A stretch of 64,000 nucleotides of DNA from Collinsella sp. (GTDB taxonomy: Bacteria > Actinomycetota > Coriobacteriia > Coriobacteriales > Coriobacteriaceae), in contig JBKXIH010000001.1 of the NCBI GenBank assembly GCA_047007585.1, positions 1,849,792 through 1,913,791 of the forward strand, in the 5' to 3' direction. The notes under the pieces are model-generated. The model did no database searches and was not told where the DNA came from. It saw nothing but the letters and a program-made list of their open reading frames with translations. Below, in pieces: positions 4,010 to 4,258 of the stretch (position 1 is its first letter; every line of letters starts with the position of its first letter). The position numbers and the translations under genes were made by a program.

Positions 4010-4258
4010 ACATAGCCCCCGTCCCGGCGAGCCGGGCAGCCTTCGGGGATACCCCCGTTCTCGCTGTGCGCGCGGCGGTCGCCGCATTCGCGTCGACAGA
4101 CTTGGGGAACCCCGCCGAAGGAGAGGATTGCGGGCCGCCAGAGCGGTATCCGCGGATATGAGACTGAGCCGAAGGCGTCGACGACATGCCGGGGGCGGAC
4201 CGGGACGGGTTCAACGGCAGGCCCCGCCGACCGATTGCAAGCGGTCGGCGGGGCCATT
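4010..4258 (+). ncRNA. Putative bridge/seek RNA of the IS1111 element
   Basis: Highly structured non-coding end. It contains CTCGCTGT (4060-4067, reverse complement of the empty target ACAGCGAG), CGACAG (4094-4099, target top strand) and ATATGAGAC (4156-4164, circle junction). Closing hairpin at 4220-4255. Exact RNA ends unknown. Confidence 0.75.

What the first reader, a model, noticed from the sequence alone, without database searches (positions are those of the whole stretch)
4010..4258. Bridge/seek RNA of an IS1111 element with target and donor guides readable in the sequence
Seen: removing the IS at the AG core rebuilds the empty site GCAACGAC-AG-CGAGCGGG and the circle junction GTCATATG-AG-ACACTATG. 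The 3' non-coding end holds CTCGCTGT (4060-4067), the exact reverse complement of target ACAGCGAG, and CGACAG (4094-4099), identical to the left target plus core. These two sit on opposite sides of an internal loop, closed below by CCTTCGG/CCGAAGG and GGGG..CCCC pairings and above by the hairpin GCGGCG-GT-CGCCGC. Further on, ATATGAGAC (4156-4164) equals the circle junction across the core. A strong hairpin (4220-4255) may end the RNA. Established: IS110/IS1111 recombinases use such non-coding RNAs to specify target and donor, and IS1111 members encode them downstream of the transposase. Inference: this is an RNA-guided recombinase with an AG core from a gut actinobacterium. I could not find a convincing second donor guide, and each match is short.
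Basis: partly seen in the sequence, partly recalled or inferred. Interest (0 to 1): 0.9.

Follow-up and report, generated by a model that had tools for sequence, protein, structure and literature searches.

The report
IS1111-type guide RNA in Collinsella
The stretch after the transposase gene of a small jumping element in a gut Collinsella carries the short sequences that tell the element where to insert, as in the RNA-guided IS110/IS1111 elements described in 2024, so it is a well-supported new example of a known system.

Summary
Every motif is at the stated coordinates. The element is 2761-4288, with AG at both junctions. Empty copies of the target repeat in the same genome carry a single AG.

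I collected 87 related copies from Collinsella genomes. The base at 4060 follows the right flank in the complementary sense: C:G 44, U:A 27, exceptions 12 of 83. The base at 4096 follows the left flank in the identical sense: A:A 55, T:T 16, exceptions 16 of 87.

Sixteen distant element types (33-47% protein identity) share the same RNA scaffold. Their guide blocks match their own flanks and ends better than each other's. The donor match 4156-4164 changes together with the element's right end in those relatives.

The CGACAG 6-mer alone is at chance level. No second donor guide was found.

Not shown: an RNA of defined ends, its strand, or binding to the protein. RNA-seq reads cover the region, but their strand could not be calibrated. 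All three copies in this assembly have a frameshifted transposase gene.

Verdict: a new member of a known kind. It is a clean natural case of guide retargeting, but not a surprise.

The parts
2759..2760 (+). AG core copy at the left junction (LT-AG-RD)
   Evidence: The left flank ends in CAG in 54 of 54 full copies. Empty sites carry one AG.
2761..4288 (+). Insertion element, 1528 bp, or 1530 bp if one AG is counted as in the Hall convention
   Evidence: Three copies in the genome differ only by three single-C indels. 54 of 80 related loci hold the full length.
2766..2778 (+). Left subterminal inverted repeat ATGACCCAATCCG. It is preceded by the extension ACACT (2761-2765), which is 7 bp when the AG is counted.
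2889..4009 (+). DEDD/IS110-family transposase gene, broken in this copy by the loss of one C in a C run at about 3381-3385. The intact form in relatives is 373 aa.
   Evidence: Pfam PF01548 and PF02371 match in two different frames. The indel was mapped against the intact L016 copy. NCBIfam NF033542 scores 195.8 bits against a cut-off of 140.
4040..4121 (+). Target-binding domain, 82 nt: the closing stem 4040-4049/4110-4121 encloses both target guides and the hairpin P3
   Evidence: RNAalifold on 49 NCR versions; conserved blocks in 17 element types
4058..4067 (+). Right-target guide, complementary to the top strand AC-AG-CGAG. Position 4060 co-varies with the fourth base after the core.
   Evidence: Cognate versus non-cognate matching in distant types: 5.21 versus 3.13, 0 of 20000 permutations as high.
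4068..4092 (+). Hairpin P3 between the two target guides
   Evidence: It folds as a hairpin in 16 of 16 element types with different sequences. One pair changes from C-G to A-U in 15 of 49 NCR versions.
4093..4101 (+). Left-target guide: TCGAC-AG, identical to the top strand and so able to pair with the bottom strand. It is followed by AC, which equals the first two bases of the element.
   Evidence: Position 4096 co-varies with the flank. Distant types: 3.20 versus 0.75, 0 of 20000 permutations. The 6-mer alone is at chance level.
4127..4155 (+). Hairpin P5 directly before the donor match
   Evidence: A hairpin forms in 16 of 16 types. The stem is UGCGG/CCGCG in some and UGCCC/GGGCG in others.
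4156..4164 (+). Donor guide AUAUG-AG-AC: the last 5 bases of the element, the core and the first 2 bases of the element, that is, the circle junction. It is unpaired in a multiloop.
   Evidence: 9-mer matched in 8 of 3000 shuffles. Invariant in 49 NCR versions. Relatives with the end CATATT carry AUAUU and one with CATAAT carries AUAAU. Permutation test: 9 of 20000.
4220..4255 (+). 14-bp GC-rich terminal hairpin, the likely 3' end of the transcript
   Evidence: It is present in 16 of 16 types, and in most relatives T-rich sequence (such as TTTTG) follows within a few bases. In this copy the tail is only ATTGTGG, and the terminator scan found nothing.
4266..4271 (+). TTGACA just inside the right inverted repeat, conserved in 16 of the 17 aligned types (TTGACG in L115). 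It may be an outward-facing -35 box.
   Evidence: Function not tested. No matching -10 box at a fixed distance was seen in the circle junction.
4273..4288 (+). Right subterminal inverted repeat CGGATTGGGTCAT (4273-4285) plus the 3-bp extension ATG
4289..4290 (+). AG core copy at the right junction (LD-AG-RT)
4289..4416 (+). Host repeat of about 113-128 bp, whose first bases AG-CGAGCG are the right half of the target
   Evidence: 10 copies in the genome at 95.6-100% identity, all starting at the same base

Best explanation
Window 2761-4288 is an IS1111-type member of the IS110 family in a Collinsella genome. Its 3' non-coding region (NCR, about 4036-4262) encodes a seekRNA or bridge RNA.

[quoted passage not shown] The two guides flank hairpin P3 inside a domain closed by the stem 4040-4049/4110-4121. 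[quoted passage not shown] The RNA would thus hold donor and target together for the DEDD/serine recombinase to exchange strands at the AG core. The GC-rich hairpin 4220-4255 probably ends the transcript.

Shown here: the element borders and the AG core, the family of the protein, conservation of the RNA scaffold, and co-variation of guide positions with flanks and ends.

Inferred from the published IS110/IS1111 work: that an RNA of this strand is made, that it binds the transposase, and the chemistry of strand exchange.

The natural target is the start of an intergenic repeat of about 113-128 bp. The copy in the window cannot make transposase as assembled, because the gene has a frameshift.
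For: (1) Family. Pfam PF01548 and PF02371 match. NCBIfam NF033542 'IS110 family RNA-guided transposase' scores 195.8 bits against a cut-off of 140 on the intact 373-aa relative. The sequence aligns weakly to the solved ISCro4 and IS621 transposases.

(2) IS1111 anatomy. The subterminal inverted repeat is 13 bp, the extensions are 7 and 3 bp, the NCR lies 3' of the gene, and the top-strand match lies 5' of the bottom-strand match (PMC11187229).

(3) Close relatives (82-100% identical over the C-terminal 207 aa). Guide base 4060 against the right flank gives C:G 44, U:A 27, C:A 7, U:G 5 in the 83 elements that have a right flank. Guide base 4096 against the left flank gives A:A 55, T:T 16, T:A 8, A:T 4, A:C 3, A:G 1 in 87 elements. 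Fisher tests give 1.8e-10 and 4.2e-8, or 8e-9 and 3e-7 after removing identical flank sets. One association is complementary and the other identical, as the model demands.

(4) Same genome, different fate. The 9 unoccupied copies of the right-hand repeat lack AC directly before the AG. Five sites reading [C/G]GACAG-CGAAA, the sites used by the UUUCGCUGU lineage elsewhere, are empty here. In genome G349, a CUCGCUGU copy sits at AGCGAG and a UUUCGCUGU copy at AGCGAA.

(5) Distant relatives. A profile of the NCR finds the same region in 19 of 22 loci. Cognate versus non-cognate matching is 5.21 versus 3.13 for the right target (0 of 20000 permutations as high), 3.20 versus 0.75 for the left target (0 of 20000), and 4.67 versus 2.97 for the element's right end (9 of 20000).

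(6) Structure. P3, P5 and the terminal hairpin fold in 16 of 16 types despite different sequences. 6 of 14 alifold pairs show changes on both sides.

(7) Constraint. Between the two Collinsella clades the NCR is 93.3% identical and the coding sequence 82.4%.

(8) Transcription. Stranded RNA-seq reads of three runs cover 4125-4295 at depth 89-149 in one direction and 7-28 in the other, so the region is transcribed in a relative.
Against: No RNA with defined ends was seen (one search lists no start or end pile-ups inside the NCR). The strand is not calibrated. The tool notes that in most stranded libraries the first mate is opposite to the RNA. If that holds for these runs, the main RNA over the NCR is antisense to the proposed guide RNA.

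Reads come from a clade-2 relative, not from this strain.

Exceptions to the guide-flank rule are 12 of 83 on the right and 16 of 87 on the left.

The 8-mer ACAGCGAG occurs 129 times on both strands of the genome. Three of these lie inside the element copies. About 94 are expected from base composition. Only 3 sites are occupied, so the short guides alone do not explain site choice.

The CGACAG 6-mer is at chance level on its own (979 of 3000 shuffles).

Co-variation of the donor guide rests on three end types that follow phylogeny.

No segment complementary to the top strand of core plus left end was found in 13 of 15 types.

Rfam 15 has no match above threshold.

Related elements are not independent, so the P values overstate the evidence.

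All 3 copies in this assembly carry a frameshift.
Confidence: 0.85

Rival explanations
1. The NCR is only a 3' untranslated region with a terminator and protein-binding DNA sites. Target choice is made by the transposase protein, and the short matches are leftovers of chance and shared ancestry.
For: The 6-mer is at chance level. Single-sequence folds are no better than shuffles. Guide alleles largely follow clades, so part of the association could be phylogenetic. About 126 other ACAGCGAG sites are unoccupied.
Against: Insertions are separate events at 78 distinct flank sets, yet they follow the guide allele in the predicted sense on both sides. Variants with nearly identical proteins (95% or more) but different guides sit in different sites. 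Distant types with unrelated targets (GGATTCC, TTCCATG, A-rich) each carry the matching block at the same place in the scaffold. The NCR is better conserved than the gene. Hairpins are kept through compensatory changes.
Confidence: 0.06
2. The functional transcript is antisense to the transposase gene, for instance read-through from the neighbouring minus-strand gene (queA by its sequence features; name recalled, not from a call) or from an outward promoter. The NCR would then act as an antisense regulator, not as a guide RNA.
For: First-mate-on-plus reads outnumber the others about 5- to 18-fold over 4125-4295 and over the left end 2757-2870. The tool says the first mate usually lies opposite to the RNA. 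The ORF 4432-5649 on the minus strand points at the right end of the element.
Against: The library type is unknown and no gene of known direction was in the stretch laid. An antisense RNA would not explain why guide positions follow the flanks in the sense-strand register, nor why the order of guides matches the published IS1111 seekRNAs. Both RNAs could exist together.
Confidence: 0.07
3. The element is a dead relic in this genome. The RNA features are real, but nothing moves here any more.
For: All three copies have one frameshift each in a C run: the window copy at about 3385, the other two at about 3550.
Against: The three copies are otherwise identical over 1528 bp, which points to recent movement. 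The indels are single-base changes in homopolymers, a common assembly error. Relatives carry an open frame of 388 codons, stop to stop, in most genomes. This reading does not conflict with the main explanation of what the NCR encodes.
Confidence: 0.3

Closest known systems
IS1111-family seekRNA elements (ISEc11, ISKpn4, ISPa11, ISPst6; Siddiquee et al. 2024, PMC11187229; outline and sections 6, 9, 13 read, plus passages on donor and extensions)
   Same: DEDD transposase with a PF02371 C-terminal domain. Subterminal inverted repeats of 11-13 bp. Extensions of 7 bp on the left and 3 bp on the right. Long NCR 3' of the gene. Two short target matches, with the top-strand complement 5' of the bottom-strand match. 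The two matches overlap in the target. The host target is a repeated sequence. The stem-closed target domain is 82 nt long here; the reported short seekRNAs are 82-96 nt.
   Different: The protein is longer (373 aa against the 330-350 aa stated for the family). The conserved GL-P----S(t)G motif reads GLAPKQRSSA, so SA replaces SG. The host is a Gram-positive gut actinobacterium. Neither the RNA nor its binding has been shown here.
IS621 / IS110-group bridge RNA (Durrant et al. 2024, PMC11208160, passages read; Hiraizumi et al. 2024, PMC11208158, passages on handshake guides read)
   Same: [quoted passage not shown] The dinucleotide core is included in both. A separate part of the RNA matches the joined element ends (the donor).
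   Different: The RNA is encoded at the right end, not the left. The order of the guides is reversed. The core is AG, not CT. The donor match is a single strand in a multiloop, with no partner guide found. Both bottom-strand guides are followed by AC, the first bases of the element, whereas in IS621 the handshake bases adjoin the top-strand guides.
REP-targeting IS110-family elements of Pseudomonas putida (ISPpu9, ISPpu10; PMC12288879 and bioRxiv 10.64898/2026.03.19.712850, search listing and abstracts only)
   Same: Insertion into one position of a repeated intergenic sequence present in many copies per genome.
   Different: Different host phylum and different repeat. Here several sub-lineages with altered guides divide a family of related repeats among themselves.

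Membership tests
IS110 family (DEDD RNA-guided transposases) | N-terminal DEDD/RuvC-like domain and C-terminal Transposase_20 domain | tested here: met
   PF01548 at 2.2e-11 and PF02371 at 2.5e-20, in two frames of the window copy. NF033542 scores 195.8 bits against a cut-off of 140 on the intact relative L016:2003-3121.
IS110 family (DEDD RNA-guided transposases) | Catalytic serine in the G--P----SG motif of the C-terminal domain | tested here: inconclusive
   The motif reads GLAPKQRSSA. In the phmmer alignment to ISCro4 (9t56), the Ser aligns with the Ser of ESG, but Ala replaces Gly. PMC11187229 mentions SG, TG and occasionally TA, not SA.
IS110 family (DEDD RNA-guided transposases) | Site-specific insertion without a target duplication other than the shared core | tested here: met
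   The flanks read xxCAG | AGCGA in 53 of 54 full copies. Empty sites carry a single AG.
IS1111 group | Subterminal inverted repeats of 7-17 bp (usually 11-13 bp) | tested here: met
   A 13-bp perfect repeat, ATGACCCAATCCG / CGGATTGGGTCAT.
IS1111 group | Asymmetric terminal extensions, 7 (or 6) bp left and 3 bp right | tested here: met
   AGACACT on the left, counting one AG as part of the element, and ATG on the right. The rule is taken from PMC11187229, Introduction passage.
IS1111 group | The longer non-coding region lies downstream of the transposase gene | tested here: met
   128 bp before the start codon and 279 bp after the stop codon.
IS1111 group | Transposase related over its full length to that of IS1111; length 330-350 aa | tested here: inconclusive
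   The length is 373 aa, outside the stated range. No IS1111 protein sequence was available for comparison, and no tree with ISfinder members was built.
seekRNA / bridge RNA | Guide segments that co-vary with target flanks, one per strand, overlapping at the core | tested here: met
   close relatives; distant types.
seekRNA / bridge RNA | Donor-binding loop with two guides (left and right donor) | tested here: not met
   One guide (4156-4164) is present and follows the element's right end. No segment of 5 or more bases complementary to core plus left end was found in 13 of 15 types, and the two hits lie at inconsistent places.
seekRNA / bridge RNA | An RNA of this region exists and co-purifies with the transposase | not testable with these tools
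   RNA-seq reads cover the region in a relative, but strand and ends are unresolved.
seekRNA / bridge RNA | Match to a curated RNA family model | tested here: not met
   The Rfam 15 scan of 2500-4600 found nothing at or near a gathering score. I do not know whether Rfam 15 holds a bridge RNA family.

The most novel reading that the evidence does not exclude
This Coriobacteriia branch of IS1111 elements may use a guide RNA with a one-armed donor site. Only the strand that reads the last five bases of the element, the core and the first two bases is present, unpaired in a multiloop, and there is no partner guide. The left-target guide likewise runs on into AC, the first bases of the element, so it reads the integrated left junction as well as the empty target. 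That would fit an RNA built for excision as much as for insertion. Within Collinsella, sub-lineages with 1-3 changed guide bases have divided a family of host repeats among themselves. The 15-20% of copies that sit in the 'wrong' site would then be elements moved by the RNA of a co-resident variant acting in trans.
Probability: 0.3. Interest if true: 0.5.

Novelty: new member of a known kind. Interest (0 to 1): 0.35.

Why it matters
RNA-guided IS110/IS1111 recombinases are being developed as genome-writing tools, and natural diversity is their raw material. This element adds an AG-core system from a Gram-positive gut commensal. Its guides can be read directly from the sequence.

It also offers a ready-made natural experiment. 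Near-identical proteins carry guide variants (CUCGCUGU, UUUCGCUGG, UAUUUCGCUGU; CGACAG, AAGACAG, AAGUCAG, UAGUCAG) and sit in correspondingly different sites. That gives a short list of guide swaps to test, and a data set on how many mismatches are tolerated in nature.

For Collinsella genomics, it explains a recurrent break point of assemblies and a family of intergenic repeats that serve as landing pads. It does not change what is known about the mechanism.

Tried and rejected
- **Rfam 15 scan of 2500-4600** at E up to 10 gave only sub-threshold noise.
- **Promoter and terminator consensus scan of 2600-4450** found 0 sites of either kind. The terminal hairpin lacks the T run that the scan requires.
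- **Public RNA runs.** No RNA holder was listed for the element by the index. I laid three raw-read runs of the same species label and one contig run instead.
- **Depth profile.** Depth falls from 4125 towards 4010 and is zero in most coding-sequence bins from 2985 to 3840. I take this as a mapping effect. The strain in the runs carries a clade-2 copy that is 82% identical in the gene and has about 10 differences in 4039-4092, and the threshold was 92%. It is therefore no evidence about a 5' end.
- **Match GACAGCG at 4268-4274** (same as the target top strand, covers the core). I reject it as a guide. It overlaps the TTGACA that is conserved in relatives with unrelated targets.
- **Matches GCGGGCCGC (4130-4138) and CCGCCAGAGCG (4135-4145)** to more distal parts of the target repeats. 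They lie in hairpin P5. The clade that uses the CCGCCAGAGCG-type repeat has two mismatches there, so there is no co-variation. These matches remain unexplained.
- **Second donor guide.** I searched 15 types for 5-7-mers complementary to core plus left end and found nothing consistent. The conserved GCGTCG block (about 4172-4177) pairs with GACG of most left ends but does not change in the window family, whose end reads GACA.
- **Locus clustering by either flank** chain-linked unrelated sites through repeats, giving 32 clusters. I used both-flank clustering (62 clusters) and identical 20+20 flank sets (78) instead.
- **The automatic alignment of distant NCRs** was too rough for a full consensus fold; only 14 pairs were predicted. 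Stem P1 was not tested across distant types.
- **Earlier findings of this scan** were not open.
- **Not run.** I built no covariance model and ran no protein structure or complex prediction, because the family assignment did not need them.

Full report
**1. What is in the sequence**

The element runs from 2761 to 4288 (1528 bp), with AG on each side at 2759-2760 and 4289-4290.

It has a perfect 13-bp subterminal inverted repeat: ATGACCCAATCCG at 2766-2778 and CGGATTGGGTCAT at 4273-4285. If one AG is counted as part of the element, the terminal extensions are 7 bp (AGACACT) on the left and 3 bp (ATG) on the right. The seekRNA paper gives these lengths as typical of IS1111 elements (PMC11187229, Introduction passage).

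The gene at 2889-4009 matches DEDD_Tnp_IS110 in one frame and Transposase_20 in another, so it is frameshifted. Against a naturally intact relative (L016, 373 aa) the window copy lacks one C in a C run at about 3385. The intact protein scores 195.8 bits on NCBIfam NF033542, 'IS110 family RNA-guided transposase', against a cut-off of 140. It aligns weakly to the solved ISCro4 and IS621 transposases. In that alignment the motif around the catalytic serine reads GLAPKQRSSA, with Ala where most family members have Gly.

**2. Copies and borders**

The genome (2.41 Mb, 4 contigs) holds three copies. They differ only by three single-C indels. Each copy has one frameshift: the window copy at about 3385, the other two at about 3550. 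Homopolymer errors of the assembly cannot be excluded.

Their flanks read ..CGAC-AG|..|AG-CGAGCGGG, ..CTAC-AG|..|AG-CGAGCGGC and ..GGAC-AG|..|AG-CGAGCGAC.

The right flank of the window copy (4289 to about 4416) is a repeat with 10 copies in the genome at 95.6-100% identity, and all of them begin at the same AG. The nine unoccupied copies continue leftwards with a single AG. RNA-seq reads and contigs of four runs join 2758 to 4289. The borders and the AG core are therefore settled.

**3. Are the matches more than chance?**

I ran 3000 dinucleotide shuffles of 4010-4262:

| Match tested | Shuffles reaching it |
|---|---|
| Core-covering match of 8 or more to the target top strand | 26 |
| Match of 6 or more to the bottom strand | 979 |
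| The two in the observed order within 60 nt | 2 |
| Donor match of 9 or more | 8 |
| All together | 0 |

The 8-mer and the 9-mer are unlikely by chance. The 6-mer means nothing on its own.

Single-sequence folding is no better than shuffles in this GC-rich DNA. Rfam has nothing.

**4. Co-variation in close relatives**

A scan of one genome per species found 451 relatives. The best 80 were all from Collinsella or unnamed gut bins, and 54 of them carry the full element. An order-wide search found matches in 111 of 401 genomes and in 65 of 90 genomes of the genus, mostly with an open frame of 388 codons. It also showed a second clade at about 83% protein identity. I fetched 20 clade-2 copies and 11 further stretches, of which 10 held the element. 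With the three own copies that makes 87 elements.

The variable positions of the NCR cluster in the two proposed target guides, in hairpin loops and at a few other sites.

- Right guide: CUCGCUGU lies next to AG-CGAG. UUUCGCUGG and UAUUUCGCUGU lie next to AG-CGAAA.
- Left guide: CGACAG and AAGACAG lie next to xGACAG. AAGUCAG and UAGUCAG lie next to xxGTCAG.

| Guide base : flank base | Count |
|---|---|
| 4060 C : G | 44 |
| 4060 U : A | 27 |
| 4060 C : A | 7 |
| 4060 U : G | 5 |
| 4096 A : A | 55 |
| 4096 T : T | 16 |
| 4096 T : A | 8 |
| 4096 A : T | 4 |
| 4096 A : C | 3 |
| 4096 A : G | 1 |

The 4060 counts cover the 83 elements that have a right flank. The 4096 counts cover all 87. Fisher tests give 1.8e-10 and 4.2e-8, or 8e-9 and 3e-7 after collapsing to 78 distinct flank sets. 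One association is complementary and the other identical, exactly as pairing with opposite strands requires. Related elements are not independent, so the P values are upper bounds on the strength of the evidence. The insertions themselves, however, are separate events.

**5. Is it the host's supply of sites?**

It is not. In the window's own genome, which holds only the CUCGCUGU/CGACAG type:
- The nine empty copies of the right-hand repeat have CC, TC, TC, AG, CC, GT, AT, CC or TG before the AG, never AC.
- Five sites reading [C/G]GACAG-CGAAA are empty. These are the sites occupied by the UUUCGCUGU lineages in other genomes.
- In genome G349, a CUCGCUGU copy sits at AGCGAG and a UUUCGCUGU copy at AGCGAA.

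Against a simple code, ACAGCGAG occurs 129 times in the genome, three of them inside the element copies, and about 94 are expected from base composition. Short guides alone do not define the sites used. Either more bases count, or the repeat context matters, or the element rarely moves.

**6. Distant relatives**

A second element in the same genome has 1557 bp, a 384-aa protein about 36% identical over the compared part, and three copies. Its 3' NCR aligns block by block with the window's.

A profile of the two NCRs found the region in 19 of 22 distant loci from other genera; 3 loci gave no hit. Subterminal repeats of 9-18 bp were found in 17 of those 19.

In the alignment of 17 types the scaffold is conserved and the guide blocks differ:
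- L130 carries UCCCUU next to AG-GGATTCC.
- L133 carries UGGAAUUU next to AA-TTCCATG.
- L127 carries GCCUUUUUU next to AG-AAAAAAGGCC.

I scored each type's guide regions against its own flanks and against the flanks of the others.

| Comparison | Types | Cognate mean | Non-cognate mean | Permutations as high |
|---|---|---|---|---|
| Right target | 14 | 5.21 | 3.13 | 0 of 20000 |
| Left target | 15 | 3.20 | 0.75 | 0 of 20000 |
| Element's right end against the donor block | 15 | 4.67 | 2.97 | 9 of 20000 |

The donor block reads AUAUG-AG-AC where the element ends in CATATG (window, L115). It reads AUAUU-A(A/G)-A(C/A/G) or AUAUU-AG-CU where the end is CATATT. It reads AUAAU-AA-AG where the end is CATAAT (L116). 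That is only three end types, and they follow phylogeny, so this support is real but thin.

**7. Structure**

On 49 distinct NCR versions of the close family (95% mean identity), RNAalifold gives the following features:
- a long closing stem, 4014-4038 with 4188-4218;
- the target domain 4040-4121, with both guides largely unpaired around hairpin P3;
- hairpin P5;
- the donor match unpaired in a multiloop;
- a 14-bp terminal hairpin.

Only one pair is compensatory in that set. Across 16 types, P3, P5 and the terminal hairpin all fold, with different sequences. 6 of 14 alifold pairs show changes on both sides. In most relatives T-rich sequence (such as TTTTG) follows the terminal hairpin within a few bases, like an intrinsic terminator. 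In the window the tail is ATTGTGG and the scan called nothing.

A donor site in a multiloop is what Durrant et al. describe for many IS1111 orthologues (PMC11208160, passage read).

Between the two Collinsella clades the NCR is 93.3% identical, the gene 82.4% and the last 26 bp 100%.

**8. Expression**

No RNA holder was listed by the index. Three raw-read RNA runs of the same species label hold a clade-2 relative. Reads cover 4125-4295 at depth 89-149 with the first mate on the plus strand, against 7-28 on the minus strand. The same bias holds over the left end, 2757-2870.

The bias shows RNA rather than DNA. The library type is unknown, and no gene of known direction was in the stretch, so the strand of the RNA is open. 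If the library is of the usual kind, the main RNA is antisense. No pile-up of starts or ends was listed inside the NCR. The gaps over the gene, and the fall of depth towards 4010, are explained by the 92% threshold against an 82-93% identical reference.

**9. What was not found**

No second donor guide was found. In 13 of 15 types no segment of 5 or more bases is complementary to core plus left end, and the two hits lie at unrelated places.

Both bottom-strand guides are followed by AC, the first two bases of the element, in most types. The left-target guide therefore reads the integrated left junction. I note this as a lead, not a result. It fits the published finding that flanking target sequence is needed for circle formation (PMC11187229, passages).

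**10. Comparison and verdict**

The element works like the IS1111 seekRNA systems. It meets their anatomical criteria, apart from protein length (373 aa against 330-350) and the SA motif. Full-length relatedness to IS1111 itself was not tested.

Compared with IS621, the RNA sits at the other end of the element, the guide order is reversed, the core is AG, and the donor site looks one-armed.

A full-text search for Collinsella together with IS110 gave four papers, none about this element by title or abstract. I did not check ISfinder.

Bridge RNAs were already predicted in 93% of the IS1111 entries in ISfinder (PMC11208160), so this is a new member of a known kind. Its value lies in the clear natural retargeting series.

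Noticed in passing
window 4289-4416: A repeat of about 113-128 bp with 10 copies in the genome, all starting at the AG of the insertion site. 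It contains an outer inverted repeat, GGGCCGCATTTG (4296-4307) with CAAATGCGGCCC (4380-4391). Inside is a hairpin at about 4333-4362 that, read on the minus strand, is followed by TTTCGTTTC, like a terminator for the minus-strand gene ending at 4432. Rfam gave only a sub-threshold hit (STnc380, 17.6 bits against 60).
   Followed up: partly
window 2610-2629; genome C1 about 526.4-528.0 kb, 1788.1-1789.7 kb and 108.3-109.9 kb: A second IS1111-like element: 1557 bp, a 384-codon open frame, a 15-bp subterminal repeat and three copies. Its empty target site TGCCGGCAC|AAAAGGAACGTCCCC lies in the window at 2610-2629. Its left junction always reads AG while its right junction reads AA, so donor and target cores seem to differ at the second base.
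   Followed up: partly
window 2590-2720: The left flank is full of short repeats of the type AAGGAACGTCCCCAA / GTGCCGGCA / CCAATGACTAC. Window 2665-2697 matches more than 25 other places in the genome. These seem to be a further family of intergenic landing-pad repeats.
   Followed up: no
window 4266-4271: TTGACA just inside the right inverted repeat is conserved in 16 of the 17 aligned element types (TTGACG in L115). It may be the -35 box of a junction or outward promoter. I saw no -10 box at a constant distance in the circle junction.
   Followed up: partly
window 4130-4145: GCGGGCCGC (4130-4138) equals bases +5 to +13 of the window's right target. CCGCCAGAGCG (4135-4145) equals part of another repeat family used as a target by clade 2. 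Both lie in hairpin P5. There is no co-variation, and the matches are unexplained.
   Followed up: partly
genome C1, minus strand at about 411042: One copy of the target repeat reads ..GGACAG-AG-CGAGCGGG, with two AG in tandem where other empty copies have one. It could be a footprint of imprecise excision or simply a variant.
   Followed up: no
genome C1, minus strand at 1939363, 78 bp left of the third copy: A perfect empty site (..GGCAACG-ACAGCGAG-CGGGG) lies 78 bp upstream of an occupied one, so two target repeats stand in tandem and only one is used.
   Followed up: no
related loci L023, L083, L091 and others: Left and right flank families occur in mixed combinations across genomes. For example, the left half of one repeat type is paired with the right half of another. 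This suggests rearrangements between element copies or modular repeats.
   Followed up: no
window about 3381-3385, 3546-3550 and 4105-4113: All differences among the three genomic copies are single-C length changes in C runs. The genome is in 4 contigs, so long-read homopolymer errors are a plausible cause of the apparent frameshifts.
   Followed up: partly
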